A stretch of DNA of 56,495 nucleotides, filler included, from Stramenopiles sp. TOSAG23-6 (lineage: Eukaryota): assembly GCA_900128565.1 (NCBI GenBank). It is 4 parts of 4 records of this genome, joined end to end, with 100 filler letters (N's around TTAATTAATTAA, not from the genome) between each part and the next. Parts side by side here need not be neighbours in the genome. Positions count along the whole stretch, not along the records: positions 42,520 to 56,495 come from LT636151.1; 3 more parts are not named here. One strand, given 5' to 3'. Under the pieces are notes generated by a model. That model was given only the letters and a program-made list of their open reading frames with translations, was not told the origin of the DNA and ran no database searches. Made by a program: the position numbers and the translations under genes. Of the stretch, positions 391 to 56,442 are shown in pieces. The first letter of the stretch is position 1; each line of letters begins with the position of its first letter.

Positions 391-3300
391 ATGTCTGAAT
401 GGTTTCATAATCCAAGAGAAGAAGCAGCCAAAAGAGAGGCCGTAGCTAACGTTGTTGCTGCTACTTTGGCTCTCAGAGAAATAACAGAGTCTGTTTCATC
501 TCTTGACAACGCAGAACGTGACATCCCATGGATTGCCAAATTAGGAAGAGAGATCGTACAATCAATGATTGATTCTATTAAAGTTGGTAAAAATACCAAG
601 CGTTTTGTTGTAAATGGACTACGTGGTCTCGTTGATGAACTTGTCGAATTTCTCAAAATAATTCTTTGTAGAAAGCCTAACAATCAAGTTGCTTCGGGTG
701 GAAAGCCTAACAATCAAGTTGCTTCGGCAATCTTGACTGTCAGCGAAATTTTTTCATACCTTCACTTGGATGTGAGACAAAGCCATGATCGCGATGTTGT
801 GACTGAACTCGCCAGACTACTTACAAATGGTTTATGTTTTCTCTCCAAATCAAAAATGGAGGCTGAACATACAGAGAAGATCACCGAACATACAACTTTA
901 TCCCAGCATGAGCAAATCAATTCGGAACTTCAACTTTATGCTGAGACTACAGGTGGTATTACGATTGATATAAATACATTTCTCAAAGTAGGATCTATAT
1001 ACAATACCAACGAAATAGCCAAACAAAGATCAGAGACTCACGTGGAATGTAGCAACTTATTGATTAACTTGAGTTCCTTACTATTCTCTACTACAAATGT
1101 GACCCTCCAATTTCGAGTAGCGTTTCTCATTTGTACTCTTTGTCTTCAGATGTTTCCAATGACTAAAGGACAATCCAGTAAATGCCAAAAAAAAGATATT
1201 TTATGTTTATTTCAAAATTCAATGAATATGGATACTGCTGGTCAATCTATCGAATTCAATCCTGGTTCTCAAATTGTCAAATTATATGATTCGCAAAAAG
1301 ATGAAATCCAAAATAAGGAATGTGGTATTTATGATTTCGTACATAATACCAATATTTCAAAAAATGATATTTCTGTTGTACATTGTAATGCTGTAAACAT
1401 TTGCACACAAAACTCAACAACTCCGATATTTGNATCAAAAAATTGTCAAGAAGACGTTACAATTGAAGAATGTCATGCTCATTTTGGTACTTTTGATTTG
1501 TATTTTGTACCGTCAAGTTCTTGTCGTTTTGAACTAAGGAATGGACTACCCGCTCTAAATTATTTTGATGTATGGTTTATTTTTTTTTTCAATTTTAATT
1601 TTAATTTTTTTTTCGTACGGAATTTCGTACCTAACGATTGTTTTTGTGATTTTGTATTTTTTCACAACACATGATATTGCATATCTTGAATGGTCTAAAG
1701 AAAATAGAGAGATTGATATAATACTTCGTCATAACGACTTTTCGTTATCAAATCCTATTCTATCAAATCTAAGCACTCTACTTAGTGAAGATAACTCTCA
1801 TATTTCTATTCGACTACGTTTTGATGATCGCGAAGCATTTACACGTAATCTTACTACAATTCGTCGACATATAAATTCTAAATTGAGACCTCGTCAAAGT
1901 GTCTGTCAAAATCGTACGTACAACGTAGCAAGTAGTCTTGCTGCGGGAAATTGTTCTCAAATAATTGCAAATGGTTCCTCTTCAACAGATCCGAAAACAC
2001 CTCTTAATGTACGTTTTCATAATGAATTTAATTTTTTTTAGTTTGTTTTTGCATCATTCACTTCAATTATTAATTATTTGACAAAAATATTGTACTAAAC
2101 TGTTTAAAAATTTATTTTTTTTCACAATACAGCGATTGGAAAATAAACCCGACTCTGATGTACCCGACTCTGATGTACGTTTTCAATTTTTTTCTTAATT
2201 TTTCGTAGGAAATTTTGTACCTAACAGTTTTTTTTCGAAAAAAAAATTTTGAATTTGTTTGTTATTTTTTCGTAGAAAATTTTGTACCTAACAGTTTTTT
2301 TTTTTGAAAAAAAATATTTCTGACAAAATATACGAGTCCTAAAAGTATATTTAATTTTAAAGTAAGTACTGAAATTGAGTGTCAACCGATGATTAATTCT
2401 TCTAAATCTTCTGATCAAATCTCAAAAAAACAATTACATGTCGCGAATCATACTAGTAGTAGTAGTAGGCCAAAAGACCTCTGGAATCTCCGCGGAACTT
2501 TGACATCTGTAACATCAGTTTTGAATGATGCAAATGAAGCAGAACTTAAAGAAGCTTGTAAACAATTAGGATTAAATTCTAATTGTGAACAAAAAGATTG
2601 GATGATCTGTCGTATCCAGGTAGAATTAATAAATTGTGGGAATATTATCAGAGATGATCAAACTATTGTATGTTTTCATGGTTAATTTTTTTTTGCTACG
2701 AAATTTCGTATCTAACGATTTAAAACTAGTTGAATAATTTTAAATTTTGAGGATTTTTTTTCATACGAAATTTTGTACCTAAAAAATTTAATAAAAATAT
2801 ATTTTTCACACTACATGTAAGTGATATATATATAATGTATGCATGCTGATTTTTATTTCGTTTAATCGTATCTAACTTTTTCATCCATGTATCTTTCACA
2901 ACACAGGTATTAAGAAATAATCAAAAACAAGAAACACGAAATGTATCTGATCAAATACAACAAACACAAGATAAAAATAATCAAAAACAAGAAACACAAG
3001 ATAAAAATAATCAAAAACAAGAAACACGACATACATCTGATACTGGTCAATCTGGTTCTGCCCAAGTAGTTAATCTGCCACAGGGACGCCATGATTCGTA
3101 CAGTATATGTAATATTGATGGTGGTGATAAAATACCTCAGATTCCTGGACTTTCACCAAAAGACAAAAGCACATTATACGATTACAAAAAATGGTGGAAA
3201 AACTTGTCTGAAAAACAAAAAATAAAGATGAAATCCGATTATACAACGTTTTTATCAAATAAAGTCCTAATTCGTGCTAAAAAAGCGAGAATGAAACAAT

Positions 3301-12200: not shown

Positions 12201-13344
12201 GTACATCAAATGGTAGAAATAATGTCAATGCAAAGCGAATTGCGTCATTAGAAAAGCAATTGAAGGAAGCCGAACAAGCGTTAGCGAGAAGATACCCAGA
12301 TTCTATTAGTAATTTAATACGAGCCGCTGGCCCATCTGAAGAGCAAAGGGATCAGCATACTCAACTTGTCGCAAAGGTCACAGAACTTCAAACTGAACTG
12401 GCAGATCGTAGTGACGCCGAGGAACGGAGATTACGTGCGTTGCGACAAGAGCATCATAAAGTGATCAACTTATTAGAGAAGAGATTAGAACGCCAAGAAC
12501 TTGCCGCTTCTGTGAATAATGTAGTACATCCAGGAAAGACGACTATAAAATCAAATAAAAGTCGAGTACGTGGAAAGTTTTCGAGAAATTCTGGGCACAA
12601 TGGTCCTGTATCCAAAGAGGATGAATTAGATCATGAGTTGGAGAGAGTGAGAACATTTTGGAAATCGAAAGTAGAATCACTTCAAAAACAGTTAGCTGCT
12701 GCTGGAGATAAATCTCGAAATAATGTTAATCATGCGATTGAAAATGATCAAAGGCAAAGTAATATAAATGTCACAAATAACAATGGACAAGAAAACTGTA
12801 TCCCACAAAGTGATATTAATGCTGCGACACAGAGAGCAATTAGTGCAGAAGCAGAAGTTAAACGTCTTTCAATTTTGTTAGAAAAAGGAGAATCAAATAT
12901 AATTTTCACAAACACGATGGAAAATACCTCAAAAATAAATTCTTCACAAAATGACGTTGTACAAACTGCACAAACAAAATCGTTCGATTCTGTACGTAAT
13001 ACATCGATACCTTTAACAATACACCAAGAAGCAATTCAAAAATTAGAAAGCCGATTAGCTGATAGTGAAAAATTACAACGGGAACTTTTGTCAGATTTGG
13101 CCGTATGTTTTATTTTTTTTTTAACAAAAAAATCGAATTTATTTTTCATACGAAATGTTGTACCTAACAAATTTAAGTTTTTTTTTTTTTGAAATATTTT
13201 TCCAAAATACATGAGAGGACCACAAATGAACAAGAACAGCTTTTGAGAATTAGAGCAGAACATAAACTAGAGCTTACTGAAGCAACAACGAAGCAAAATA
13301 AACAGTGGGCCTCTGCCCTTGCGGAATCAGAGAAAAAAACAGAT
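9261..13344 (+). CDS. CEP162: Centrosomal protein CEP162-like coiled-coil protein; exons 9261-10967, 11084-13102, 13213-13344; a further exon 13436-13615 is possible
   Basis: Motifs I recall from CEP162/QN1: LQEVLLKGLHTENERL, LQDKISFHVENAKMVD, IASLEKQLKEAEQALARRYPDSISNLIRAA. Frames join across the repeated introns. Confidence 0.7.
10968..11083 (+). mobile_element. Introner-like intron, GT...AT
   Basis: at|GTATGTTTTA...ttcgtacgaaattttgtacc(n)aac...ttccaaaataCAT|gat; in frame YDTD|DAAE; first downstream AG (+7) is out of frame. Confidence 0.85.
13103..13212 (+). mobile_element. Introner-like intron, GT...AT (in-frame AG at +3 possible)
   Basis: cc|GTATGT...gtacctaac...tccaaaataCAT|gag agg; gives SDLA|ERTTNEQEQLL. 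Confidence 0.8.
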
Positions 13345-19538: not shown

Positions 19539-22500
19539 TTAATCTCCATATCCAAATAAGGCTAAAGCAATGTTTTCGCCGATTTGATTAGGATCAAACG
19601 GCTCTCTCTCGATATCATTATATTCTGTTTGGTGTGATTTTCTTCTCTCTACCTTAGTTCTATTAGTATCATCTCCATATCCCTGGATGGAGTAATCTGC
19701 AGATAATCCAAATCCACTTTTTGAATTTTCAAGCGAAAGAAATTGACTCAAATCATCTCGATAATCATTTGGTTCACCTTTTGCAAAACTTCCAAATGTA
19801 AAANCNTCAGTTTTTTTTTTNANGCTTTATTCCACTCTTGTCCAGATCATCCACCCTATTTATACCACTCAAGCGCCCAGCGCAACTACAAGCCAAACGT
19901 CCGCATTCATGACAAGTATCATCTTCGTATCGATTGCGACCACCACCCACAATACCCCAGGATTCTGTTAACGCTTCTGTCACTTGGACTTCTTTTAGAC
20001 TTTTTGGTGAAGTTAGGTTCAAATTACGGTATGTAGCCCTCTGAGCAAGCTTTGGGGAATGTGCTAATCCTTTGACTTTTCGGTTAGTTATAGTATTTAG
20101 CTTTTTCTTTAATTTATGTTTTTTTGAACTAAATCCGCGCTTTTGTAAAGTATTTTTTGACTTTCGAAATCCTCTTCCTTTTGATAGAGCAACGGCCTTT
20201 CCCGATTGTCGTTGTCGATGTTTAGTTGATCCAAATCCAAAACCTTTAATATTTGGTGCGGATAAGGCTTTCATTCGGATCTTCTTATTCCGAGGTATCT
20301 TCCTCAAAACTGGGCCTCGCCTGTTTAAAAGAACCTGCTCGCGGCTTTCTTCTAATGCTACTTTCAATTTTACACTATCAGACTTCAGTTTTCTATCAAT
20401 TAGTTTTTTGTTCATACGTATCTGTTTCTCCATGTCTAATTGGAACTGTTTTTCGCGCTTCAATAAGTTGGCATTTCTACCTTGAGCATGGCGAAGATTT
20501 CTTATGCTTTCTACAGATGATTTCTTTCGATGTTGCCTGAGAGATTTTACTTCATTTATGCTTTCACGATCCACGGTTGCATTTGATGTTTTGTTTACAT
20601 GAGAAAGTAATAACTGCTCTGCCAAGTCAAGTCGACTTTTCCCTGTAGAAAAATGAGTTTCATCGCGTAAAAACGACCTTTTAGCATTTTTAGCAATATT
20701 ATTCACAAGGGATTTTGGTCCAGATGTTTTCATTGTTACCACTGCTTCTAACTTACCATCACTTATTTCTGAAGCTAAATCACGACCTTGAAAGAGATCA
20801 TTAGTTGGCGTATCAATGAGAGGGTTTTGAAGCGATTCATTACTATTATTTCTATCGACTTTCTTGAAAACATTGTGATGCTCCTTTTGTGTCGCCAAGA
20901 AGCTAAGAAGTCCTCGTCCTTTGGAAGCAATCTTAGTATTTGGTGTTGTCTTTGTTTCTTGTTCTTCACCAAGTTGCTTTTTTGGTGACTCGCTCACTAT
21001 TTTTTGTAAATGCCTAGAGATATGCTCGTCTTTATCAATATCAGCACCAATACTATCATTGGAAATTGAGTTGGGAAGTGTAGGAAATGGTTTAAGAATT
21101 GATTTAGGATTTTGAATGCCAAGTGAAATAGCTTTCTTTCTCCAATCAGCTTCAAGTTTTGATTCATATTGTGCAATGATATCCCTCTCAGCCGAAGAAA
21201 TCTTGTTTTGGGTCACTATCTCCATATTGCGGTTACTTAGCGATGCTTCGCCGCTTGTATGATCGGCAGCTTTCAAGAGGACTCCTTTATTAATATCAGC
21301 ATTTTTCAAAAGTCGTTTTGCATCATGAATATCGCGCTTAATTTTATGTTTTTTCATTTTGAATCTTCTTACTTGATGTACACTCTTTATTTTGATTGCC
21401 CCAGGAGTGTCAATATCATCAAGTTTTTCAGTTCTTATTATTTTTCTACTTGTGCTTTCTTTTACGCTATTTGACTTTATCTCTTTAATTGCCGAATTTG
21501 CGTTTTCTTTGTATTCTGTTGGTAATTTATCCACAAATAATCCAGGTCGTGCCTTCTCGTCGCCAGTAAAAAGTTGTGGAGCTAGTCTCCGTTTCTCTTC
21601 TACTAATTTTCGAAGGTCAATCACAAGAGATTCTAGTCTATGTTTCTCTGCTTCCCATTCCATTTTATCACTTCCATACTTATCAACCAATTGAGCCATG
21701 GATTCACCAACTTGTTGCTCGCGAAGCTCGATGTTTTTGTGCTTCACTTTTAGCGCAGCTTGTAAAGTTTCCACATCTTTTTTTGATATCTTGACTTCCT
21801 CTTTCAGTGCCCGCATTTTTTTTGCGTGGACTTTTCTAAGAGTAGTTATCTGAGCCTTCTGCGTTGCAGCCTCTCGAATAAATTCACAAATATGAATATG
21901 GCCCTCTGATTGTGCAACATCTTGTGGAGTTTGACCATTTGTATCTTTGGCCATCAAGCTAGCACCATTAGCACATAGAAATCGAGCAATTGAGAGGTGG
22001 CCCCGTTTACAAGCATAATGCAGAGCTGTCCATTTCTTACGATCTTCCTTCATAATCAGTGGAATCCACAGTTGTAATCGCCGTGCTTCACGTAAACCTT
22101 CCGGGTCATCGCCAGCCTCGATAGTACCTGTAACAGCACAACAGGTTTCATGCAGGAGTTTGCAAATATCCACACTTCCTTGCCAAGCAGCTAAATCCAA
22201 AAGAGTCCTTCCAAAGCCATCAACTCTAGTAATATGTTCAATAAGTTGTTTTTCTCCTCCCTCACGCAAAACATCTAACAACCACACAACTGATTTTAAT
22301 GATTTCTCTGCTTTTATTCCAAGGCCTCCAATTGGACATGATAAGATTGTGTGGTGTATTGGTGATCTTCCTGCTGAATCCAAAGCAGTTGTGAGAGCAC
22401 CATGTGAAACTAGTAATTTCATTGCAGCAATATCTGCTGCGCGAGCTGCATGATGAATGAGCTGAAGTCCATCTTTATCCGATATATCAACTGGGATAAT

Positions 22501-25500
22501 ACTGAGTACTTGATCAAGCCATACTACATTGCCCATTGCACAAGCTTCCATTGCAACTTTAACTTGGTTTTCTGGTTCCACTAGAAGCAAACGTTGTCGT
22601 ATTTTCAATGCGTGTTCTGCTTCTGCCTGGCGTGCATTAGCTGCTGCTATTTGGGCAGCTGCCTTTGCTGCTGATTCTTTCAATATAGCTTTCTCTAATG
22701 CTATCTCAACTACTTCTACCCCAAAATCGCGCAAACCTCTAGTAACCGAGGGAAGCTGTCCGCGTATTTTAGACCGTCTTAAAGATTCTTGTTTTTTTTC
22801 AGCAACATTATTTATAGCCTTTTGTACTTCCTCGGATGCTTCTGCTACAGTTTCATACGCTTCTAATTCCAAAGCTAACTTTTCTTCACGGGCAAAAACT
22901 ACTGCTTGAGGCTCTTTAAGTTCCCAAATATCCGCCGGTAACATTCCTTTTGTATTATTGTATGCTTCCAAATCTTTCGCATGTTGTTTTTTTTCAGCTT
23001 CTTTGGCTAACACAAATTGCCTTTCTTTTTCAATTTGTTTTTTCTCTTGTTCTCTATCATATCGTTTCTTTCTTGCTTCATTTTGCCTAGCTACAATAGT
23101 CTCTTTCCATCTTGCTTGTTCTTGCTCGCGGAGAACTTCTCTCGCAGCAGAGCGGCGTAATATGTCTGCGCGTCGAATCGCATTCTCCACAGTATCCTTC
23201 AAGCTTTCTGGTTCATCCGATAATATATGTCTATACATAAAAGGCCGAAATTGGTGTTCTTTAAAATTGGATTTAGAAAACAGTATTCGCGCAGCCTCCG
23301 CAGTGGTTACATCATTACCAGGTATTTTCTTTCGAAGCCCCGTGGGCCCATCAACAAAATTTTCTTTTTTGGCAGTGTTGAAGTTGGCATTCCGTTCTTC
23401 ATCACGCCGTGTTCGCCATTGCTTCAATAGCAAAGCACGTTGTTGCTTGATGTGAAATACTTCTGGATCTTGTGTAGCTGTTTTCACCATTTCTCTCGCA
23501 GAAATTAATCGCAAACGTTCAGCTTTTATATTATTTTCAATTCTGTTGTCCTTTTCGTATAATACACTGTAAAGCTCATTTCCGTACTCCTTTTCTTTAG
23601 AGGAAGTTGTAACTTCGATTATAGTTGCTCTCACCCACGCATCATTTGTATTTACAAGAACAGGCATACGATTTGAGAGCTTTGCACCAGCTCGAGGCAA
23701 ACCAAACTTTCCAAATATCAGTGATGGGGCTTCGTTTATCTCATTGGAAGATTTGGCATGTATACCAGAACTTTCGAGTTTAGGAGAAACTATTTCATCA
23801 TGTAATTCTGTATCCCGATTTCTATCTAATGTAGAATGACTAATATATTGTTCTGGTTCTGTTGTAATTGCCAAGGCATCAAGTAAACCATCGTCAGGAA
23901 TTCCTGTTGGAAAAATATCTAAATTTAAGGCAGCAAAATTTTCAACATGTTGTTTTTCAGCTGAAGGTTTGATGGATAATCTGTCTTTGTTCTCCTTCTC
24001 TTGCTTCCATATTTTTGCCTTCTCAAGACGTGTAGGCTTGCGATTTGATTCAAATGCAGGCTTTCCAAGTTCATCAAGAACTTGCTGGCCGGTGCGAAAA
24101 TCTCTCGGCAGTACACCATCAATATCAGCAAAAGCATCCACTGTCTGAGTATCAAGGGAACCTTTTGTTGCTGCATTTGCAAGTGCTACATTACGAGATG
24201 TAGTCTTTGTTAATGCTGCAGCTAACGAATCATCATTTTCAGCTAGGAGAGTAATCATCTCTCGATCAATTGCAATTGCATCTTTGGAGCGATACTTTGC
24301 TGTGCTAGAAAGCACCCCATAGTTACTTAAAACACTTGTTGCTGTCTTTGTTAAATTTTCCCATTCAGCTTTTTCAGTGGCAATTTCTTGGGCAACTCTT
24401 AATTGTAACTGAATGTCCTTTTGTGCCATTATTTGTTCTGCTGCAGCTTCACCAGCGGCTTGAGCCATGATAGCTGGTGAACCCCCGGCTGCCATTACCG
24501 CCTTAGCTGCTGCTGCAGATGCTTGTTGTGTACTTGCACCGGATATAATTGCACAATTGGCGGCAGCTTTACCTGCTGCAATTGCTGCAGCTTTTTGATT
24601 AAGCTTGGGCTGATCAAACCCAGCAAATTCAACTTCAGCTGGGGCGAAATCTTTTGCATAACCTGCTGGACCTAATTTATTCTTTGCTTCTGCTACCCTT
24701 TTGACATCTCGTTCATCAGGAACAATATTTCCAGTCTTTTGTGCATTTAAAATTTTCTCAAGATCAATGTTTCCTTCATCTTGGTCATGTCTCATTTTGT
24801 ACTTAACGTCTTCAATCCTGTTATTCTCTGTATCAATGAGTTGCCTCGCATATCCCAACAACTCCTTATATCTGCGCCTTCCTTGGACACTCTCACGATC
24901 CAGAGTTCGTTGTAATTCAAGACCAATTGCATCTTTTCTATTATTAGCAGCAGTGTTCATATTTTGTTGTGCCATGTTTATTTGTTCACGTTGTACACTT
25001 CGTGTAGCTGCAGCGGCTGTGAGTAAAGAAAGGAAAATAGACACTGAGAGTTTTGCATCATAACAAATTATGGCATTTGCCCTGGAAAATCCCAGAAAAC
25101 GCAAGCGTGTTTCATCCATAGCTTTAACCGCATGAAATGCGAGATCGACAGTTGCTGGTTTAATATCATATCCACGAAGAGATGCAAGACCACATTCAGC
25201 ACCATAACGCAAAAACCCTCGATTATCAATCTGTAGAAGTTTAAGTCCTTTTGGTTGCAATGTACCCCAATGACTACGTTCCATATTTTTGAAAATTGTG
25301 GTACTCTTATTGGCTTTTGCTAAACCAGCAATAGTGATGCCTGAAATTTCACGTGTAACCCGAGAACCTTTTTTTCCATCTCTTGATCTGGCACCAAAAG
25401 CATCATGTGAAGCAAACTCGGCAAATGTTATTTGTAATTCTGGTGACGTGCCTAACGTTTTTTCTAATTCGTCAATTTTAGATTTACGATGCTGAGCCAA

Positions 25501-27540
25501 GCTTTCTTTTTCTGCATGTTTCAATTGCTTTGTAGGAATTGATTTAGTAGAATCCCTCATTTGAATTGTGGCGTTCTTTTCCGTCTTTTTCTTTGCTTGT
25601 ACACCTTGCGGATGCTCATTCATTGATTCTTCATAGGATTTATTTCTTGACTCTCCCACTGATTTAATTTTTGATTCTTCCATTGCTTTATCTGTCGATT
25701 TCTCAAATATTTCGTTGATCTCCTTTTCTGGCGCTTGATGTTCTAGCAAGTCTTCCACAGTATCATTTTCTAACGTATCTTTTGAATTAAGACTACCGGT
25801 TGAAGTTTTTGCAGAGTGCATATGTCCAACATTATTTTCGGTTGAAACTCTGTCTGAAGGTACTGGCGAACTCTTTGTTTGTGGAAATTTAACATGCTGC
25901 GAAAGTTTACTAGGGTTTAAAATATTCTTCTGGTAACTTTCGGTATGTATTGCTTTCTTTGTGTCATATATTCTATCTACTTCAGATGTATCAATTCGTC
26001 TTTCTTTCACTTCTCGTTTATACGCTGCCCCAATTAATGCTACTTGGGTATCATTCAGTTGTAAGCTCTCAGCAGCAATTCTTATTATATCTGAAGCACT
26101 TGCGTCAGTATTTTCCTCGCAACTCTTTTCTACGGCTACCACAAAGGCTTCAAATAACTCACTTTTAAGTCCAGCTTTTGATGCTGCAGAAACGGCATCT
26201 GTTAATATGTTGACACTTTTGGCATCAATCAATGTATCATCCGGTGAAGAATGTTCCTTTAATGATTTTAATTCAGTATTATATTCAATGCTGTTATTAG
26301 AAGTTTTAATATTACCACAAAGTGGTACAGACCCCTTTGCATTCTTAAACTCATTGATTGACCAGTCCATTTCTTCGGCCAAGTCAGCTAACTCAGTACT
26401 CGACACACCAGCAGTAGTTGCCGCAAAAATCGCAGCTTCAGTCACTTCAGGAGATTTTGCCAACATTTGAACATCTATATTTGTATTGCTATTATTTTTA
26501 ACCCCACTCTTCGCAAAACTGCTTCTTTTATCCCTCTTTACTGCTTCAGCAGAAGCACCTGCAATGGCACTGGCTTGTTGCTGTGTTAGTCCAGCCACAG
26601 CAGCCGCCGCAACAACAAGGTCTGCAACTTCAGTTGCAGCATCAATCTGTGTTTTAGATGGAGAAACACTGGGGAGCAATCTTCGTTTGGGACTGGATAT
26701 ATTATGTCTGCCATAACTATCAGTGCTACGACCTGTATAAGGCCGTTTAGTGCTGAGTGGTCTATAACTATCTCTACTTCTACGACTTAATGCACGCGCA
26801 CCACTAAATGGTCTATAACTATCTCCACTCCGACGACTTGTTGCACGAGTTCTGCTGAAGGGTCTATAACTTTCTCTACTTCTTCGACTTGCTGCACGAC
26901 CTTTTAAATTGATATAATGTGCCATCACATCAACATCTTGTGCTGTTATTTTAGAAGTGTCGCTACGGAAGCTGTTCTGACTACTATGTGAAAAGGCAGA
27001 TCTCCGGGAAAAACCTCGCGAATTGTTTTCTATTATTTTTTTATTTTGTTTCGACAGTGTTTGCTGTAGATTGGTGGGAGACAGTCTATTGTTTTTCATT
27101 CTAGATTCCACAGGAATTACACGATCGTCGTTGTATGTTTGTTCTATACTATCCTTATCATATTTAATATTTCGTTCCATAAGTAAAGCTAGTCGCTGTC
27201 TAGATGATGACATATCTTGACGGTGGTGCTTACTTTCATCTAAATCCACGTATTGGGGGGTGATATAGGCATCCCTTATCTTAGTCTCAATTTTTTCCGT
27301 ATGTTCTCCTTTTTCTTTATTCGATGGATCACTCTGATCCATGGTCAAATTTTTGAGTTCTTCACCGAGTCGGGGGTCTTCATGCAATGGTTGTAGCTCA
27401 GGGAGGGCTCTAAGAGCGTCAGCGGTTGATTCAAATGGTGGGTATGAAGGGGGATGTGGCTCGTGTCGAACTTTTAAGTCTTTCTTTTCTTTCATTCTAA
27501 AAGCAATNNNNNNNNNNNNNNNNNNNGCTTCTATAGCCAT
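19539..27540 (-). CDS. Very large intronless protein with p25alpha-like, Tudor-like and ankyrin-repeat regions
   Basis: 2592-aa ORF. Ankyrin motifs GLQLIHHAARAAD, GRTLLDLAAWQG, WTALHYACKRGHLSIARFL. The stop at 19807 falls in an N/homopolymer patch and another frame continues to ORF 19539. Confidence 0.75.
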
Positions 27541-27886
27541 ATTGCATACATGTATAGGTATGTAACATGAAATATGAGTAGTCAATCGGACATTACGGGT
27601 GATGAGTGAAATATAGTAATGTCAAATGGATACATAATACGTAAATATAGCCTATCCACAGTTTCACTACTGACGTGGGTACCATAGTATATAACTGTCG
27701 CGTCAGCATTTTAAAACACGAAATAACTGAAAAGTAACCAAAAAGATACAAACTGAATTCACAAAAGTTTAAACAACAAGGTGTCGACTATTATTGATCA
27801 CTTAAAGGGTTATCTTCTATAAATTGANNNNNNNNNNNNNNNNNNNNNNNNNNNNNNNNNNNNNNNNNNNNAAAGTATAAAAACTA

Positions 27887-28264: not shown

Positions 28265-28364
28265 NNNNNNNNNNNNNNNNNNNNNNNNNNNNNNNNNNNN
28301 NNNNNNNNTTAATTAATTAANNNNNNNNNNNNNNNNNNNNNNNNNNNNNNNNNNNNNNNNNNNN

Positions 28365-28446: not shown

Positions 28447-29848
28447 ACCAAGTTGGCAAGTTTTTCATCAATAAAGGAAGGAAGCATAGCTGTATTAATT
28501 GTAAATTGTTGCTTCCATACCTTTTCAGGTGATACCGATGGATTACTAGCGACAAAAAATTCACTGTAAGGATCAGAAAAAATTCCTACTTCGCACCAAC
28601 TTTTTAAACAATTAAATAAAGGTTTTGTTAGTGAATCTAATTGGCTCTGAACAAAGTTACTTACTGTTATATCACCGTGTTGCATATGTAGATATATAGC
28701 AGATGCAAGCGCCCCTCCATGTATTGTGAAAAATATTCTAAAAGTTTGGATTTTTTTGTTAGGTACGGAATTTTCATCGAAAAAAAAAATAAAAGTGTTA
28801 GGTACAAAATTTCGTATGAAAAAAATAAAAAAATTTGAAATTGATGATGAAAACGTACATGAAGTCCAATAGATGAATCGGCAATTATTGCCATCAAGCG
28901 CAAGCGATCAATTGGTGTTTGTAACCATATAAACAATCGTCGCAATGTCAATGAAAAGTGCTGTGGTTTTCTATTTTCTCCTTCTTCTTTTTTATTATTT
29001 TTGTTTTGTAAAGCATCGCGATTAACTTGAGCTTGAATTATCGCAATTAATCTATAAAATTCGCTTAACTCAGTTTTCAATGAAAAACATAACGCATTTT
29101 GACATAAACCTGAACGGGTATCTTTTTCACAATGTTCAATGAAATTACCGAGCTTCCTAAAGAGCCAACCACCTTCAGTGATTTTACGTATCAAAATTCT
29201 CGTAGGTTTTGGAACTCCAAAATTAGCGCATACGACATAGCCTCGCTCAGTAGCATCATACTTAATATACGTACCATCAATACCCTGAAGAACAAATAAA
29301 ATATCTCTTATCAATAATTGCTCAGATACTTCAAATGAAAAGTTTTTACCAACGTTGTAGTGAGTCTCAGAAAAATTAATGGTTTTTGTAGTTTTTCCAG
29401 GGGATTTTTCACAGTGATTACTAGATAATGATACATTTTCTTTTAATGATAATCCTAGACTCGGTTCTAGCAAACTTGGTTGAAATGAAGGAGGGGAATC
29501 TGAACTCATACTTTGAGAACCACGTAGTGCATGGAGAATCTGAAGTACTCCACTTTTGTTCTGAATGGCGCCAGACTTTCTGAATAAATGACATAGCTCT
29601 CGGAATTTCAATGGGACGCTCGTTTCATTACTATTAACTCGAGCAAGATAACGCTCTATTTTGATAGCCATTGTATCAATATCATTCCTAGATAGTATTC
29701 GTGAGTTGGTGGTTGAGGTTGAGCCTACAATACGCACGCAGTATTCTAATAAACTTGAATGCTTTTCTTCGTTATGTGGGCATATACTGGACACAAGTCG
29801 TCGTAATAGTAACGCAACCACTTCTTCTGGTCTAGCACTACGCTCCAT
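28447..29848 (-). CDS. TUBGCP3: Gamma-tubulin complex component 3 (Spc98 family), 3'-partial; exons 29848-28859 and 28718-28447
   Basis: EVSEQLLIRDILFVLQGIDGTYIKY, GLCQNALCFSLKTELSEFYRLIA, LTLRRL, GGALASAI...HGD, DPYSEFFV, MLPSFI match GCP3 grip motifs. Confidence 0.88.
28719..28858 (-). mobile_element. Introner-like intron with two cores, GT...AT
   Basis: Minus: cat|GTACGTTTTCATC...gtacctaac x2...cacaataCAT|gga ggg gcg; restores GLH|GGALASAI. AGs at -19 and +4 are both out of frame. Confidence 0.88.
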
Positions 29849-42419: not shown

Positions 42420-42573
42420 NNNNNNNNNNNNNNNNNNNNNNNNNNNNNNNNNNNNNNNNNNNNTTAATTAATTAANNNNNNNNNNNNNNNNNNNNNNNNN
42501 NNNNNNNNNNNNNNNNNNNTTTGTACCTAACAATTTTTTTTAGATTTTTTTGAAATATTTTTCCAAAATACAT

Positions 42574-42935
42574 GGGCAACCAAACTGCTCTTGAGCAAGA
42601 AATGCTGCTGGAAGCGGATATTAATAAAGATGTATGTTTTAGTTTTTTTTTAAACAAAAAAATCGAGTTTTTTTTTCGTACGAAAATTTGTACCTAACAA
42701 ATTTTAGTTTTTTTTTTTGAAATATTTTTCCAAAGTACAGGGCGTTCTTTCAAAAGAGGAGAAATTGAATTTTGTTAAGAAAAAGAGTAAGAGCATTGGA
42801 AGACGAAAAAAACGAAAGAAGAAATCAAAAAAAGACTTGTCCTTTGATTTTGATGATACAAGTAAAATGGTACTTTTAGGGGTTGGAGTAGCTACTGTTG
42901 CAATAGGTGTATTTTTTTATATGAAGAGACGGTGA
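42574..42935 (+). CDS. C-terminal exons of a tail-anchored protein (42574-42631, 42741-42935)
   Basis: Follows an AT acceptor at 42573; GNQTALEQEMLLEADINKD|GVLSKEE...MVLLGVGVATVAIGVFFYMKRR. Confidence 0.6.
42632..42740 (+). mobile_element. Introner-like intron, GT...AG variant
   Basis: at|GTATGTTTTAG...ttcgtacgaaaatttgtacctaac...ttccaaagtaCAG|ggc; phase 0. Confidence 0.85.
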
Positions 42936-44491: not shown

Positions 44492-46049
44492 ATGTGGAAT
44501 AACGGGACGAATGCACTTCCTGTAGATTTGAAGAGGCTAGATAACTTACGTAACTCTAAAGACCCTATGCTGCTGCTGCCGAAAAGTAGCCAGCAAGCAG
44601 CATGTAATAGTCTTGCTTGGATTGCAGAAATTGCCGATGAAGTAAGAAAGCAAGATTCGTCGACAATTACGTCAAATGCGTCAATAGCTGCGTTACAGAA
44701 TAATAAAACTGTTCCACGCGGGTTCAATCCAACTGAGTATAGTAGTAATTTCACGTATACACAAATGAATACACAACCTAAAGTACATAGACTTATACAA
44801 TCAAAATCACCCATACAACAACAGCAGTTTATGCCATCCCCGGAAGGTAACCATTCAAGTTATATAGGTGACGTATATCATACTGGAAATAATATAAATG
44901 CCGCGTATGCCTCTCATGGGCCTGGTCGTAATCAATCCAGGTACGAAAATAGTAATTGTTTGTCGAATAGCCCTAATAGAACAAATGCTTTGAATATGAA
45001 TAGATTACAATTTGCGCAGAATAATAATTCTAATTTTTTGTTTCCTAGGCGAATGACATCTCACCAGAGCATTGCGTTCCAAAATTCCAGTGCCTATGCA
45101 CAACAAGCTCAAATGAATCATTCCATGCCTGGGTACGTTTTCGTCATGAATTTCATTTTTTTTTTGGTACGAAATTTTGTACCTAACATTCTTGTTTTTC
45201 GAAATATTTATTCACAATACAGTTTGACAACTGGAATGACAACAGGATTGAAGCGCAAATTCATGGGGGACATTATAGACCCATCAATGGCAGACAGCAT
45301 GTGTGTTTTATTTTTTTTCAATTTCGAATTTTTTTAATATGAAATTTTGTACCTAACATTTTTAGTTTTTTTTTAAATATTTTTCCAAAATACATCCAAC
45401 GAAACAGAAAATTACTGAAACTATCTGCACCTCCACCACCCTATATGTCACAACAATCTAATTTAGTTTTTCCTAACCGTAACTTTTCAGGCCGAGTTGG
45501 AAACAATCAAATACAAAAAAGTAAAGCACCAGTTCGACGCCCACGGCCAAAAAAAGGCCCTTTAACTGCCGAAGAGAAGCTGAGACGTAAAAAGCAGCAT
45601 GCTGATGTTGAACGAAGGCGGAGTGCTCGCATTATTAGTTTATTCAATACCTTACGAAGAGTTTTACCATCGCAGAATGTATGTTTTANTTTTTTTCNAA
45701 NTCNAAANTTTTTTTTTTATAGTAAATTTTGTACCTAACGAATTTTTTTTTGAAATATTTTTTCAAAATATATGATTTGGAATACGTTGGTCCGGGTATT
45801 TCGGCGTCTTTAGTGAAAAAAAATGCAACACCGGTCAAGAAAAAAAAGAAACGGTCTAATGTGAATACAGTTGTTTTAGATAAGGTTTCCGTTTTGTCTC
45901 AGGCAGTGAATCGTATTAAAAAGCTGGGAGCTACACTGAGGGCAGCTGGCAAATTGGTAGTTTCTACTGTTACGTCTGATGGTGGTAAACCTACAGGGAC
46001 ATCTGGTAAACCTAACCCTAAACCTAATAAGAAGAAAGATAATAAATGA
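44492..46049 (+). CDS. bHLH transcription factor; exons 44492-45132, 45223-45300, 45396-45678, 45774-46049
   Basis: Basic/helix 1 RRKKQHADVERRRSARIISLFNTLRRVLP and helix 2 LDKVSVLSQAVNRIKKL are joined by removing 45679-45773; N/Q/S-rich N-terminus. Confidence 0.82.
45133..45222 (+). mobile_element. Introner-like intron, GT...AG variant
   Basis: gg|GTACGTTTTCGTCATGAA...gtacgaaattttgtacctaac...cacaataCAG|t; 90 nt. Confidence 0.85.
45301..45395 (+). mobile_element. Introner-like intron, GT...AT (in-frame AG at +12 possible)
   Basis: at|GTGTGTTTTA...gaaattttgtacctaac...ttccaaaataCAT|c; in frame with ORF 45445. Confidence 0.78.
45679..45773 (+). mobile_element. Introner-like intron, GT...AT
   Basis: at|GTATGT...ttttgtacctaac...ttcaaaataTAT|gat; first downstream AG is +40 and out of frame. 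Confidence 0.83.
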
Positions 46050-49435: not shown

Positions 49436-52400
49436 ATGCTAGTAGATGAAGACGGTAAAGACAACTCTATTGTAAATGAAGAGTCCAAGCCACTCTTGAG
49501 TAGCACCGACTCACAATTTAAAGAAAATACTAACGAAAATCAAACAGTAAAAAACGTTTGTTGGAATCGACATTATGTTATCATAATTCTCGTGACGTTA
49601 ACAGTTATAACTGCTATCTCTTTGGTAGTTGCACTTAAACTACAACCTACAAAAAAAAGCCCAAACAATGTAATTACTCCAAACAATGACGGGGGAGCTG
49701 AAGATAAAAGTTTTTTTGATCGAACAAATGAGGTGACTAGTTTAGTCCAGGGCACCCAAAACTATGTAAAGAAAGCTAAACGAGACGACCGCACTTACAA
49801 ATATATCACTCTATCTAATAAGTTAGAGGTTCTACTTGTCAGTGATCCTTCTACAGATGTTGCTGCTGCATCAATGTCAGTGGGTGTTGGGTCTCTTTGT
49901 GACCCTGAGCAATTTGCAGGACTTGCACACTTTTTGGAGCATATGCTTTTTTTAGGTTCGGAAAAATTTCCAAATGAAGACCAGTTTGCAAAGATAATCT
50001 CTCAACATGGTGGGTTTACTAATGCTTATACTGCATCTTCTGAAACGAATTATCACTTTAATATTGGCGAGCAATATCTTAAAACTGCGTTAAAAGTTTG
50101 GAGTCAATTTTTTGTATCGCCACTTTTGACAAAGAGTGCCATTGAGCGTGAAGTGAACGCAGTGAACAGTGAGCACGAGAAAAATATAAATAATGATGCA
50201 TGGAGATTCTCTCAGCTACTAAAATCTACTTCATCAGCATCACATCCGTATCACAAGTTCGCAACAGGTAATTTAGACACACTTTTGAAGTCTAATTCAA
50301 ACGATAATTTGGAAAAGGCTTTAAAAACTTTCTTTACACAATATTACGTAGCAAATAAAATGAAGCTTTCTATTTTAGGTAGTGAATCTGTGAATGATCT
50401 CCAAAAATATGCCAAAACACTATTCCAAGATATAAAAATGTCTGCTGATGATTCTGATTTCTGTTACTCTCCTTCGGTGTACGTTTTTATCCCTACCCTT
50501 AATTTCAAATTTATTTTTTTCGTACGAAATTTTGTACCTAACGAATTTTTTTTGAAAAAAAAAAATCCTTTTCACAATGCATCGTACGCGAGCCAGATAA
50601 GCTTGGAGTTCAATATATTCTTAAACCTATTGCAAAAAAGTATACTTTAGAAGTTTTTTGGTTCTTCCCGCTGATGCGTACTCATTTCAAAATCAAACCT
50701 TTAAGTTACATTGCAAGTCTTATGTATGTTTTATTTTTTTGAAAATTTGAATTTGTTTTCGTACGAAATTTTGTACCTAACAATTTTTTTTAGATTTTTT
50801 TTTGAAATATTTTTCGAAAATACATTAGCAATGAGGGCAAAAATTCTTTATTATCGAATCTAAGAAAGAAAAAGTGGGCTGATAATGTTGCAGCTAGTGA
50901 GGGGGATGAAGGTTATGATTACACTATATTTTCAGTGTATTTCTCCTTGACAGAATTAGGAGTTACAAAGGTTGACGAAATATTGCTTCTTCTTTTTGAA
51001 TTGATAGGTAAAATGCGCCAGGAGGGTGCTGAGGAATGGCGTTGGCGTGAACTTCAAAAGATATCACAATCTTCATTTGACTATCAAGAAAAAATGGATC
51101 CTTCTGATTATGTTGAATTTATATCAAATGCAATGCAACAATATCCAAGGGTTAATATTCTTACTGGTAGTTTCATTTTCGAAAATTATGAAGCTGACGT
51201 TATTCGTAATGCGATTGATATGTTGACCCCAGAGCGAATGGTTGTAATGGTTGGCGATCCAAGTAAAAAAGATGATTTTTATACAAAGGAAGAACATATT
51301 TATAAGACCAAGTATACGGATAATAATATACCCAAAGAGTTTCTTAAAAAACTCGGGAATGTATCAACCACACACACAAAATCCTTATCGCTTCCACTGG
51401 AAAATCAATACATTTCTACAGATTTTTCATTATCCCCTAATGTTCAAAAATATCATGATGAAAAAAGTCCTAGCACGGATAGTAAGAATTGCGATCAAAA
51501 TTCCTGTAGACCAAAGTTACTGGAGAGTCAAAGTCGTCACAGAGTTTGGGTTCGACCCGACCGTTACTTTGGAAACCCTCATATAGACCTAACGATCTTA
51601 ATTGACATGGGAAGGGGAGAGAAAAGAGAAGTTCAAGAAGTAGAAACTCCATCTGATAAAATGCGATTTAAAAGATCGGCTACCAGTGTATATACTGATG
51701 AAATGATGGAGGTTCAGGGAAATGACAGTAAAAAAGTAAATGTGAGCAGTAGCATTGTAGAAACAAAGAAGCTCTTACGACAAGAGTTGATTAAAATTAT
51801 TTATGCTAATGTGCTGTCACATGCGTTAGTAGAAAAAATGGCAGATGCTTCGGTAGCAGGATATTCAGTCGATTTCGATAGAACAAGCACTGGAGTTTCA
51901 CTGAATATTCGAGGATTTTCAGAAAAGTTTGACAAAGTTTTGAAAGAAACTTTAGATTTTATTAGAACTTTTCTTTCAAGCGAAGAAAACTTTGAAAACT
52001 TTGAAGAAATTGTACAGAGCATTACAAGAGGATGGGAAAATTTCCCCAAACAACAACCTTACGAAAAGGCATTGTTTTTGCTTAAATATACACTTCGAGA
52101 ACCTGTATTTACACCTGCCGAATTCCTACAAGAATTACATAAAACAGAGTCGGAATCTAAAATTAGTAATGGCAATGGCGATGAAAGTCCTTCCCCAGTA
52201 TCTTCTTCACTAAAAGCAGGTAATGTACCAGAATCTAAAAGTAGTAAAGACTCAGTAATACATGAACTAAAAAGCAGTGATGGAGGTCCCATAAGTCCAC
52301 CAAAAGGACCACCAAAAGCTAGGTTTAAAGAGAAACAAAGGCGGGAGAACAACGGTCGATTTCGTGCAGTGAAAACTCTTGCACCTACCGCCCCGAGTAG

Positions 52401-53925: not shown

Positions 53926-54302
53926 AATTNTTTATGTGAAAATTTTTATATTATATATAATTGATTATATTNTTTTTCAAAATTTAATAAAAAATAGGAA
54001 TAAAAAGTGATTTTTTATTTTTAATGCTCCCGAGATCAGATACAAAATTGTCTACAAAAAAAAATCCTTAATGTATTTTATGATCTCGATCTCTCAATCA
54101 TCAAAGAAAGCAAGCATAAGAATTCCATGATTCCGTACCATTTTTTNGTATGAAAAGACAAGAAGAATTTGACACAGAAAGAATTCCGGAAAAATCATTT
54201 TTTGGCCATTTTTAAAATTTTCGGGTCAGCTTGACTCGAGTGAAAAAAAACACTATTCACAAACACGCTTACACAGTTTTTATATCAAAAGGTAATACCG
54301 TA

Positions 54303-55805
54303 ATGGATTACTCGAAATGGGATAATCTTGACACTGGAAGTAGTGGTGACGATTCTGATGATGCGTATGGACGCTTGCCACCATCTCTACCCACATTTAA
54401 CGACACGTCGCTTTTGCAGTGTGGTGTTCAAGAGCGAAAAATTGGTCAGCTAGCAGTAGATGCCTGTCTGGAGAAGCTTGCTTCTGGAGCTGACCCAAAT
54501 AGCTGTAATAGAATGGGCCAGACTGCGTTGCACATTGCTGCCATCTGGGGTGGAATGGGAGTTGGGCGAACTCTACTCAAAGCTGGGGCTAATGTAAACG
54601 CTCGTAATATGATGCGTGGTTCAACGCCTCTTATGATGGCTGCTGGACGGGACCAAGCTGAATTTGCAAAGTTCCTTCTCGAGAACGGTGCAGACCCCAC
54701 GATGCGGGATACTTCCGGTCAATGTGCCTGGCAAATGGCTTCTGACGAGTCTCTTCGCATGCTTTTAGGAGGTCCATCGCCAGAGCTCACTGATGCGACT
54801 CTCGAAGGAAATCTTCAAAGGGTCAAAGACGTCCTTCGCCGCAATCCCGAGCTTTTAACCGTGCGCAATGGTGACGAAGAAACAGCCCTTACACTTGCTC
54901 TCAAAGAAAGACATTGGCCAATCGCTAGATACTTTATCAATCACCCTGACGCGGCATCTCTAATAAATTTAGAAGATTCAGACGGCGCATATCCTCTGCA
55001 CCTTTGTGTTCGTATGGAAAATCTCCCTCTTGTTGCTGAATTGCTGAAATGTGGTGCTGATCCTAACCAGAAAGCCTATCGTTATACTGAATATACCAGT
55101 GGTAGGTTTGATAAAATAGATAAGGCTACTGGAGAAAAGACGACTGTTTCAAACGAACATTGTACGCCCCTACTTGAATGTGCAAAAAATGGTAATATCG
55201 ATATTGCGAAGTTACTCATTCAGAGTCGATGTGACGTTGACGCGACAGATGGCGATGGATGTACAGCTCTTTATATCACGCTTGATGAATACGCTGATGC
55301 TCTTGATGATGATGAATCTGAATCTAAATCTAAAGATCGTATCGAGAAGAAAAAAGCGATGGCGGCTCTTTTGCTATCAAGTGGTGCATCCCCAAATATT
55401 GGTAACGCTTATATAGGCTACGATAATACACTTCTTGCTTGGGCATCATCGTCAAAAAATATTGAAGTTGTTAAACTTCTTTTACAATACAAAGCAGACC
55501 CAAATATTGCTGGGAAATCTGGAATGTACCCGCTTCATATGGCAACTCGTGTAAACTGTGTCCCAATACTACAATTATTATTGGAGGCTGGTGCTACGAT
55601 TGATGTAAAGAACAAAACAGGCCAAACTGCTTTATGTACTTTTTTTTTTTTTCACATTTTTTTTTCATATGAAATTTTGTACCTAACGATTTTTTTTTGT
55701 TAGTAAAAAAAAAATATATTTTTTCACAGTACATATCTATCCCAAACTTGTAAGAAGACAGATATTACAAACCTATTATTACAAGCAGCTGCCGCTCTTA
55801 TATAG
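54303..55805 (+). CDS. Ankyrin-repeat protein; exons 54303-55635 and 55735-55805
   Basis: Many repeats (GQTALHIAA, GSTPLMMAA, GAYPLHL, GMYPLHMA); last repeat GQTALYLSQTCKKTDITNLLLQA is completed by splicing; N-terminal MDYSKWD motif. Confidence 0.9.
55636..55734 (+). mobile_element. Introner-like intron, GT...AT
   Basis: at|GTACTTTT...gaaattttgtacctaac...ttcacagtaCAT|at; the CAG 5 nt upstream would break the ankyrin frame. Confidence 0.87.
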
Positions 55806-56442
55806 TTTTTCATTAGTGTATGGAAACAAAAATGACATTGGTATATTATTTATAAATAATAAGACCAAGTGCAATACAATGTGAAATGTCTTTTTAGGGA
55901 TAATATTTCGTGTCTTTTTAGGGATAATATTTCGTGTCTTTTTAGATGTAGAGTGATTTGCGTGAACTGTGTGAAACAATGTTGTAAGCGTGTGACTATG
56001 ATTCTATGAAATAATTTGTATGAGAGAAAATGTGGTGCGAGTGAGTGTGTAGTATTACGTGGTGTTTATATTTTGGAGTGTGTGTATATTTAAATTTCAT
56101 ACAAAATTTGAAAATTTCATAAAAAACATAAAAAAGAGCTAAAAAAGAAATGATTTCATTTCATATATATTATATGAATATTTCAAAAACAACGTTAGGT
56201 ACAAAATTTCGTACGAAAAAGAAATCGAAAAAAATATGGAACATGTTTTTTTATTTATTGTTTGTCCAGTTCAAATAATATTCGTTTTTACTTTTGCTAA
56301 CGTAACAAAATTTGTACCAAAATTTATCAATCAAGTAACAAAATTTGTACGAAAACATTTAATCATACATCTGACTTCACATACACCACTACATGCCTCA
56401 TTTTCGTACATCCATTCTTCTACATAATAATATCACATTGTC

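What the first reader, a model, noticed from the sequence alone, without database searches (positions are those of the whole stretch)
55636..55734. Ankyrin intron skips a perfect upstream CAG to use CAT
Seen: ...tttttcaCAGtaCAT|at cta. The CAG follows a pyrimidine tract, yet only the CAT 5 nt later gives a register-perfect ankyrin repeat (GQTALYLSQTCKKTDITNLLLQA). Inference: the first-AG-after-branch-point rule does not hold for these introns.
Basis: partly seen in the sequence, partly recalled or inferred. Interest (0 to 1): 0.7.

Follow-up and report, generated by a model that had tools for sequence, protein, structure and literature searches.

The report
AT-ending intron ignores upstream AG
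In a marine protist, an intron of an ankyrin gene appears to be cut out after AT and to pass over two ordinary AG ends; it is one of thousands of look-alike introns, and the cell's U1 splicing RNA has three changed letters that match the start of these introns, which suggests the splicing machine itself has adapted to them.

Summary
The 99-nt intron 55636-55734 must end at CAT. That junction ranks first of 1,540 donor/acceptor pairs against an ortholog profile, and one poly(A) metatranscriptome contig from a near strain joins exactly these exons. Two AGs are skipped: TAG 55703 and CAG 55729.

The intron belongs to a repeat family (4,487 exact core copies). Sampled copies end in AT in 90 of 115. 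Where an upstream AG could be tested, the family end won 14 of 14; 14 more were undecided. The 3' cut follows a conserved terminal box, and the CAG is a minor variant inside it.

The only U1 snRNA found carries three changes that pair with the family donor, one with the exon's last T. This favours GT-AT over AT-AC and points to the major spliceosome. I did not find this U1 in the earlier notes I saw.

The scan already reported this family and AG skipping on other DNA of this genome. The RNA support is one contig, and an intron-less allele is not excluded.

The parts
54303..55635 (+). Exon 1 of an ankyrin-repeat protein gene (ATG 54303); ends in AT
   Evidence: ORF, Pfam Ank families, 15 full-length orthologs at 44-56% identity
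55636..55734 (+). 99-nt intron, GT...AT, phase 1; member of the genome-wide repeat-intron family
   Evidence: Best of 1,540 junction pairs; RNA contig joint skipping 99 nt; median identity 0.74 to 115 family copies vs 0.60 shuffled
55633..55643 (+). 5' splice site (-3 to +8); pairs 10 of 11 positions with this genome's U1 5' end, 7 of 11 with the Rfam consensus U1
   Evidence: U1 alignment
55634..55635 (+). Exonic AT, repeated as the last two intron bases (candidate 2-bp target-site duplication; makes the junction slide by 2)
   Evidence: sequence; family test 80 of 115 identical vs 61.5 +/- 2.6 permuted
55671..55687 (+). Family core 17-mer ending in the branch-like CCTAAC; putative branch A at 55686
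   Evidence: 4,487 exact copies in G000, control 0; branch use inferred, not shown
55700..55703 (+). TTAG, first AG after the branch motif, skipped
   Evidence: 64.4 bits vs 77.1; can pair into a hairpin with the branch region in the predicted fold
55715..55732 (+). Conserved 3' terminal box (A-rich, T tract, then ...CA-A/C-AA-TAC in most copies); the cut lies 2 nt after it
   Evidence: column frequencies and frame test 78 of 85 determinable
55727..55729 (+). Skipped CAG, made by G at position -6 of the box (A in 91% of copies, G in 6%)
   Evidence: 34 genomic matches with the same end
55735..55805 (+). Exon 2, second half of the last, degenerate ankyrin repeat, to stop TAG
   Evidence: 96 nt of it covered without difference by RNA contig of run X1
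50724..50825 (+). Family intron in the neighbouring insulysin-like gene, GT...AT, with a skipped TAG 32 nt upstream
   Evidence: family end opens 1,033 codons, AG 23, upstream frame undetermined by my cut-off
45133..45222 (+). Family intron that ends in AG at the box-defined place
   Evidence: box call only
42632..42740 (+). Family intron that ends in AG at the box-defined place, with another AG 5 nt upstream
   Evidence: box call; frame undetermined
45301..45395 (+). Family intron, GT...AT
   Evidence: box call only
13103..13212 (+). Family intron, GT...AT, preceded by exonic CC (no slide, so not readable as AT-AC)
   Evidence: box call only
1570..1672 (+). Family intron, GT...AT
   Evidence: box call only
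28719..28858 (-). Family intron with a doubled core in the gamma-tubulin complex gene, GT...AT, upstream TAG skipped
   Evidence: family end 133 codons vs AG 21; GCP_N_terminal profile 1-130 then 136-237 on the two exons

Best explanation
This is one copy of a very large family of about 98-nt, repeat-derived introns that the major (U2-type) spliceosome removes as GT...AT. Step by step: (1) Inferred from sequence complementarity: a changed U1 snRNA (5' end AAACGUACAUGG; U2A, U5G, C9A against the Rfam consensus) pairs with (C)AT|GTAYGTTT and sets the 5' cut at GT. (2) Inferred: a normal U2 pairs with the CTAAC branch motif. (3) Shown by frames, homology and one RNA contig: the 3' cut falls 2 nt after the TAC of a conserved terminal box, whatever AGs lie upstream. 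(4) Inferred: a protein reads the box and its T tract (U2AF65 is present and is the first candidate) and positions the cut, so there is no scan for the first AG; second-step docking keeps Y(-3) and mostly A(-2) but takes U instead of G at -1. (5) Inferred: the last two bases arose as a 2-bp duplication of the insertion site, mostly AT, and selection keeps AT somewhat better at the intron end (78%) than at the exon end (67%). The CAG here is a chance variant inside the box and is ignored.
For: Junction. Family size 4,487 exact cores, control 0. 3' dinucleotide, not scored when the end was placed: AT 90, GT 6, TT 6, AG 4, other 9 of 115; box end in frame in 78 of 85 determinable copies (binomial p 2e-29 against 1/3). 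First AG loses 14 to 0, 14 undecided. Same-end copies: 17 AT, 2 AG, 8 no call of 27; in 5 of 15 exon pairs tested one Pfam family lies on both sides in the AT frame, in L036 with profile positions 71 then 74. Branch-to-end distance varies from 20 to 53 nt, so it is no ruler from the branch point. AG is no rarer after the branch motif (observed/expected 0.55) than before it (0.41). U1 sits in a U5-U2-U1-U4 cluster; mean pairs 10.2 of 11 with own U1, 7.3 with consensus U1, 5.9 if the cut were 2 nt upstream. U2 branch-pairing region, U5 loop 1 and U6 ACAGAGA match the Rfam consensus. Non-AT ends copy the upstream exon end in 10 of 25 vs 1.3 expected.
Against: RNA support is one contig of depth 6.8 from one run, with 3 differences in 216 nt, so another strain or allele; an intron-less allele would give the same contig. 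Contigs drop rare forms, so minor use of the CAG is not excluded. Frame tests resolve only modulo 3 and misjudged this very gene. 43 of 158 cores got no confident ends, at least one box call is wrong (50479), and the donor profile was seeded on GT, so 114 of 115 GT is partly circular. 7 of 85 copies were out of frame at the box end. 10 of 15 exon pairs gave no shared Pfam family. L058 favours AG and is set aside only as a probable chimera; L057 looks chimeric too. Family copies are related, so counts are not independent. The U1 hit (54.1 bits) is below Rfam's gathering score (69.5), its expression is untested, and another U1 could be missing from the assembly. No reader of the box is shown; U2AF35 was not found. 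Hundreds of contigs in RNA libraries hold the unspliced core (402 and 416 records laid in X1 and X4), unexplained.
Confidence: 0.75

Rival explanations
1. U1 reads both ends: U1 nucleotides 9-11 (now A-U-G) pair with CAU at the exon end and also with CAU at the intron end, so the one change C9A moved the whole splice code from AG to AU, and the AG is skipped because it no longer pairs.
For: CAT is the last triplet in 77 of 115 copies and TAT in 12, the complement of U1 9-11. A 1992 paper title states that 3' splice site mutations are suppressed by compensatory U1 changes in fission yeast (seen only as a reference title in PMC9508853).
Against: 25 of 115 ends are not AT and most determinable ones are still in frame (13 of 17). 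A 2-bp duplication of U1-selected exon ends explains terminal AT without a second pairing. Many CAT triplets lie elsewhere, so a box is needed anyway. Contrary results in budding yeast are recalled, not checked.
Confidence: 0.1
2. The true register is AT...AC (55634-55732), spliced either by the minor spliceosome or as U2-type AT-AC introns.
For: The junction slides by 2 nt, and the read-laying tool prints it as AT..AC; it scores the same. AT-AC keeps the known A+1/C-1 terminal pairing (established knowledge, recalled).
Against: Own U1 pairs 10.2 of 11 in the GT register vs 5.9 in the AT register. 38 of 115 copies have no AT before the GT, and 20 of these still end in AT. No U12 snRNA found (incomplete genome). 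Donor and branch motifs do not look U12-type (consensus recalled).
Confidence: 0.06
3. The two ends pair with each other (short inverted repeat, ATGTAY...RTACAT) and structure sets the 3' cut and hides the CAG, as proposed for euglenid non-conventional introns.
For: In this intron the predicted fold pairs 55633-55640 with 55728-55735 (8 bp, covering the AG) and buries TTAG in a hairpin; z -2.7, 2 of 200 shuffles as good. Five consecutive end positions pair in 77-97% of copies.
Against: No covariation: +4 against -6 is C-A mismatched in 42 of 115; copies with G at -6 are not enriched for C at +4 (p 0.35). Mean 5.44 of 8 pairs vs 5.38 with partners shuffled between introns. AGs 17-35 nt upstream are skipped too. 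U1, then U6, must occupy the same 5' bases.
Confidence: 0.05
4. The element is not spliced at this site: it is a polymorphic DNA insertion or an assembly error, and the RNA contig comes from an intron-less allele.
For: The RNA contig differs from the window at 3 places, and no contig with this intron's own exon-intron border was listed. The assembly has duplicate and apparently chimeric contigs.
Against: Thousands of copies sit inside coding frames that reopen exactly at the box end. U1 is matched to their donor. The best other matches to this copy are 86-92% over part of its length (40 of 1,031 candidates scored), far more distant than the 1.4% between the strains' exons, so the insertion probably predates their split (inference).
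Confidence: 0.04

Closest known systems
Non-canonical, transposon-derived U2-type introns of the tunicates Fritillaria borealis and F. pellucida (PMC13326754: abstract, section 21 and part 1 of the Discussion read; PMC11282704: passages)
   Same: 3' AT is the commonest intron end there too (34% and 44%); a YAY triplet ends the intron and often precedes the 5' site; origin from small transposons with target-site duplication; major spliceosome.
   Different: There the main classes start with AG (AG/AC, AG/AT), both U1 versions have identical 5' ends and weak complementarity, and U2AF is duplicated. Here the donor is a strong GT site, one family dominates, and U1 itself is changed; one U2AF65-like gene was found and U2AF35 was not.
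Co-evolved U1 snRNAs of Entamoeba and Mastigamoeba balamuthi (bioRxiv 10.1101/2022.06.08.495308, passages read)
   Same: U1 5' end changed to pair with an atypical donor; Mastigamoeba has the same ACGUAC core; Entamoeba has the same extra A at position 2.
   Different: The passages report no change at U1 position 9, which pairs with the exon's last base, and no loss of the 3' AG. Here C9A matches T at exon -1 (89%) and goes with AT-ending introns.
Introners of Micromonas, Aureococcus, dinoflagellates and others (PMC11282704 and PMC12130899, passages read)
   Same: Thousands of look-alike short introns; one splice end carried by the element and the other made from the duplicated target; short inverted ends.
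   Different: The survey passage lists AG and AC as expected 3' ends and subjects families with unfamiliar ends to extra scrutiny; an AT end as the rule is not described in the passages read. No transposase or empty site was found here.
Scanning model for 3' splice site choice (PMC1431707, PMC4484395, passages) and AG-independent splicing in C. elegans (Aroian 1993, reference title only)
   Same: AGs within about 12-15 nt of the branch point can be bypassed, and close AGs compete; C. elegans can cut at a box-defined place when AG is mutated (title; detail recalled).
   Different: Here wild-type introns bypass AGs at 17 and 43 nt from the branch A in favour of a non-AG end, as the genome-wide rule.

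Membership tests
U2-type (major) spliceosomal intron | 5' GT site that pairs with U1 snRNA | tested here: met
   10 of 11 pairs here, mean 10.2 over 115 copies with the genome's own U1
U2-type (major) spliceosomal intron | Branch motif able to pair with U2 | tested here: met
   CCTAAC at 55682-55687; U2 pairing region equals Rfam consensus; actual branch use not shown
U2-type (major) spliceosomal intron | Terminal AG, first AG after the branch point | tested here: not met
   AT in 90 of 115, AG in 4; first AG loses 14 to 0
U2-type (major) spliceosomal intron | Precise removal from RNA | tested here: inconclusive
   One contig with the exact joint, from another strain or allele
U2-type (major) spliceosomal intron | Lariat formation and snRNP dependence | not testable with these tools
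   needs lariat sequencing or extracts
U12-type (minor) intron | U12-type donor and branch consensus, short branch-to-end distance | tested here: not met
   Donor GTAYGTTT, branch-to-end 20-53 nt; U12 consensus recalled, not from a call
U12-type (minor) intron | Minor snRNAs in the genome | tested here: inconclusive
   No U12 at E <= 1; weak U6-model hits are not U6atac; U11 not searched; assembly incomplete
Introner (transposon-derived intron family) | Many similar introns at unrelated sites | tested here: met
   4,487 exact cores; nearest-neighbour identity median 0.87 among 115
Introner (transposon-derived intron family) | Target-site duplication | tested here: met
   2 bp: 80 of 115 vs 61.5 +/- 2.6; 10 of 25 non-AT ends vs 1.3; no excess at -3/-4
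Introner (transposon-derived intron family) | Terminal inverted repeats | tested here: inconclusive
   Only 3-4 bp inside the duplication pair in most copies; no covariation
Introner (transposon-derived intron family) | Autonomous element or transposase; empty sites in relatives | not tested
   no search made; no related genomes held
Fritillaria-type non-canonical intron | Non-GT 5' end (AG/AC, AG/AT classes) | tested here: not met
   GT in 114 of 115 (profile seeded on GT), supported by U1 pairing
Fritillaria-type non-canonical intron | Duplicated, divergent U2AF subunits | tested here: inconclusive
   One U2AF65-like gene; U2AF35 not found by three searches in an incomplete assembly

The most novel reading that the evidence does not exclude
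This lineage has recoded the spliceosome's AG signal to AU at both ends of the reaction. The U1 change C9A pairs with AU at the exon end and also helps to mark AU at the intron end, and the AG-reading factor U2AF35 is lost or changed. It would be a natural test of the old proposal that U1 contacts the 3' splice site, and a case in which an invading element and an snRNA drove each other to a new splice code.
Probability: 0.15. Interest if true: 0.93.

Novelty: new variant of a known kind. Interest (0 to 1): 0.76.

Why it matters
The terminal AG and the scan for the first AG are among the most conserved rules of spliceosomal splicing. Here ordinary GT donors and branch motifs go with an AT end as the genome-wide norm, and perfect YAGs are passed over, which separates 'where to cut' from 'find AG'. 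The matched U1 shows that the machinery, not only the introns, has shifted; a change at U1 position 9 was not in the passages I read. The system offers natural variants (34 matches with a CAG 5 nt upstream; ends in GT, TT, AG) for testing how the second step picks its site. In practice, gene finders that require AG will call wrong proteins in this lineage; for this gene they would pick a frameshifted C-terminus.

Tried and rejected
1) First 3'-end regex locked onto an internal AAATAT and gave false TT ends; replaced by a profile that does not score the last two bases. 2) DNA-elimination reading (cut between TA repeats, leaving 6 more bases): same frame but adds two residues inside the repeat; off-diagonal in the generic profile and against the 99-nt RNA joint. 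3) Ruler from the branch point: distance spans 20-53 nt. 4) End-pairing: no covariation. 5) U2AF35: not among 16 zinc-finger matches; two short motif searches gave 0 and 2 matches, the latter at control level; absence not shown. 6) Relatives of the changed U1 in metagenome contigs: 13 pattern hits, 0 of 13 are U1 by Rfam. 7) U12 snRNA: none. 8) RNA: 4 of 7 listed runs laid, on the ankyrin stretch only; X2-X4 had no contig over the junction, which proves nothing; the other introns of the window were not tested in RNA. 9) Literature: 9 searches found no paper on GT-AT introns or an altered U1 in stramenopiles; two single-cell genome papers mention introns only in general (passages). The library lacks most subscription papers and supplements were not read, so this is not proof of novelty. 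10) ORF-length test alone calls this gene 'AG' (51 vs 23 codons); rejected on homology and RNA.

Full report
Setting. The window is eukaryotic, about 35% GC, standard code, with long exons. Its CPSF73 has one named match at 79% whose source label contains MAST, then a broad spread of eukaryotes, with oomycetes and ochrophytes among the best, at about 50-54%. A MAST-group marine stramenopile fits; 'MAST-3' comes from earlier scan notes, not from my test. The assembly G000 has 21.1 Mb in 6,236 contigs, with visible duplicates.

Observation. The ankyrin ORF from 54303 runs into a T-rich stretch after 55635. The stretch starts GTACTT, holds CCTAAC at 55682-55687 and ends TTTTTCACAGTACAT at 55734. 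It contains two AGs, TTAG 55700-55703 and CAG 55727-55729, so the CAG is the second AG, not the first. With an HMM of 15 orthologs, 55636/55734 and its two slide-equivalents rank first of 1,540 pairs at 77.1 bits; CAG gives 63.4 and TAG 64.4. A generic profile of 471 repeats keeps both halves on one diagonal only for CAT among 7 forms, with weak scores.

RNA. Seven seawater metatranscriptome runs held small shares of the region; four were laid on 54148-56100. One contig of run X1 (216 nt, depth 6.76, 120 + 96 nt on the two sides) skips 99 nt with 2 letters of slide, which equals removal of 55636-55734. No joint at either AG appeared, but only X1 covered the junction. The contig has 3 differences, all at third codon positions, 2 silent, so it is another strain or allele. 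An intron-less allele would look the same. Against that, this copy's best other matches are 86-92% over part of its length (40 of 1,031 candidates scored), which suggests an insertion older than the strain split (inference).

Family. A 17-base core recurs 25 times in the window with up to 3 mismatches and 4,487 times exactly in G000, control 0. In 400 kb of fetched stretches, the window and 30 core loci, 158 cores gave 115 copies with both ends called; 43 were dropped. The end was placed by a profile that ignores the last two bases. These were AT 90, GT 6, TT 6, AG 4, AC 3, AA 2, CT 2, TC 1, CG 1. Median length is 98 nt. The called end restored the long frame in 78 of 85 determinable copies; 30 were undetermined. 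The ankyrin intron is not among the 115 (its donor has T at +5); it is 0.74 identical to them at the median vs 0.60 for shuffles. Of 136 GTAYGTTT donors in the 400 kb, 87 have the core within 130 nt, several others look like decayed copies, and GTAAGT is below expectation (155 vs 273).

Is AG skipping general? 28 of 115 copies have an AG at least 8 nt after the branch motif and before the end. The frame favours the family end in 14, the first AG in 0; 14 are undecided, several because the AG is in frame. The genome has 34 matches of core plus CAGTACAT; 30 were given as loci, 3 were duplicates, and the 27 left gave 17 AT, 2 AG, 8 no call. One AG call is this gene (short last exon). The other, L058, is 99.8% identical from the donor onward to L050 but has an unrelated upstream exon, and the downstream coiled-coil-like exon suits L050, so it is probably a chimera; this is not proven. 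L057, called AT, also looks chimeric. In 5 of 15 exon pairs scanned, one Pfam family lies on both sides in the AT frame (L036, L045, L046, L047, L054); 10 gave no shared family. AG is not rarer after the branch motif than before it (0.55 vs 0.41 observed/expected), and the branch-to-end distance spans 20-53 nt. Copies are related, so these counts are not independent.

Origin of the AT. The last two intron bases equal the last two bases of the upstream exon in 80 of 115 (permuted 61.5 +/- 2.6, maximum 71 of 5,000). Among 25 non-AT ends, 10 match vs 1.3 expected (0 of 20,000 permutations). This fits a 2-bp target-site duplication. Where the exon does not end in AT (38 copies), 20 introns still end in AT, so AT is also favoured at the intron end. 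Inverted ends are short and do not covary, although this copy can fold its ends together over the CAG.

Spliceosome. U5, U2, U1 and U4 lie in tandem on C1146 (duplicate C6122), U6 on C3740. U2, U5 loop 1 and the U6 ACAGAGA box match the Rfam consensus. U1 (E 3e-12; 54.1 bits, under the 69.5 cut-off; model 1-166) starts AAACGUACAUGG where the consensus has AUACUUACCUGG. The three changes pair with +7 T (99%), +4 C/T (99%) and exon -1 T (89%) of the family donor. Mean pairing is 10.2 of 11 with own U1, 7.3 with the consensus, and 5.9 if the cut were 2 nt upstream. This favours GT...AT over AT...AC and points to the major spliceosome; U12 was not found. A U2AF65-like gene is present. U2AF35 was not found by three searches, which in this assembly is a hint only. 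No relative of the changed U1 was found in metagenome contigs.

Mechanism. Shown: the junction, the family, the position of the cut 2 nt after the box, the bypass of AGs, the U1 sequence. Inferred: that this U1 is the working one, that CCTAAC is the branch, that a protein such as U2AF65 reads the box, and that the AT began as a duplication. I give this 0.75. The bolder reading, that U1 9-11 also pairs with the terminal CAU (77 of 115 ends), echoes a fission-yeast result seen only as a title; I give it 0.10 as the main mechanism and 0.15 as a contribution.

Comparison. Fritillaria has AT as its commonest 3' end, but with AG-starting classes, identical U1 5' ends and duplicated U2AF. Entamoeba and Mastigamoeba have co-evolved U1 at positions 2 and 5-6, with no position-9 change or loss of AG in the passages read. 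Introners share the repeat-plus-duplication anatomy. The scanning model allows bypass of AGs within 12-15 nt of the branch and competition among close AGs, not choice of AT over an AG at 43 nt. Nine paper searches found no report for stramenopiles; supplements were not read.

Earlier scan notes. The family, its AT ends, AG skipping and the 2-bp duplication were noted on other DNA of this genome, mostly without RNA. The altered U1 did not appear in the notes shown, and a word search for it returned none.

Verdict. Interest 0.76.

Noticed in passing
L108:9-645 (G000:C1146; duplicate C6122): U5, U2, U1 and U4 snRNA genes lie head to tail within 640 bp with gaps of 2-23 nt, a possible polycistronic snRNA cluster; U1 has three changes in its splice-site-pairing end.
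   Followed up: partly
L041:1449, L059 and L050 (donor positions): A few family copies appear to start with AT or GA instead of GT at the family donor position and still restore the frame; L041 also has an in-frame GT 6 nt upstream.
   Followed up: partly
window 55640-55700: Hundreds of contigs in RNA libraries (402 records laid in X1, 416 in X4) carry the unspliced family core from other loci: retained introns, stable lariats, UTR copies or DNA.
   Followed up: no
window 17996, 44006 (+) and 56210 (-): Family cores that seem to lie outside coding sequence (after stops or between genes), without a clear donor.
   Followed up: no
window 2209/2276, 2700/2767, 28774/28813; L049, L060, L064: Doubled cores within one intron, and in L049 a second donor directly after the CAT end, suggesting nested or back-to-back insertions.
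   Followed up: no
L050 and L058; L057: Contigs that share an intron and downstream exon but have unrelated upstream exons: probable mis-joins through the repeated intron.
   Followed up: partly
window 14087-14186, 28265-28364, 42420-42519: Paired 44-base N runs with 12 bases between them (TTAATTAATTAA where read), a scaffolding spacer; the window spans more than one contig of G000.
   Followed up: no
L128-L131 (G000:C433): U2AF65-like gene with an RS-rich start, two similar RRMs and a C-terminal UHM-like domain; its partner U2AF35 was not found.
   Followed up: partly
window 19807-27621 (-): Open frame of 2,604 codons with ankyrin-like motifs in its C-terminal half and no family core inside; not scanned against Pfam.
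   Followed up: no
window 6930-8945 (-): Protein with a long run of plant-type 24-residue leucine-rich repeats.
   Followed up: no
window 55888-55945: About 2.4 tandem copies of a 24-base unit downstream of the ankyrin stop, seen by eye.
   Followed up: no
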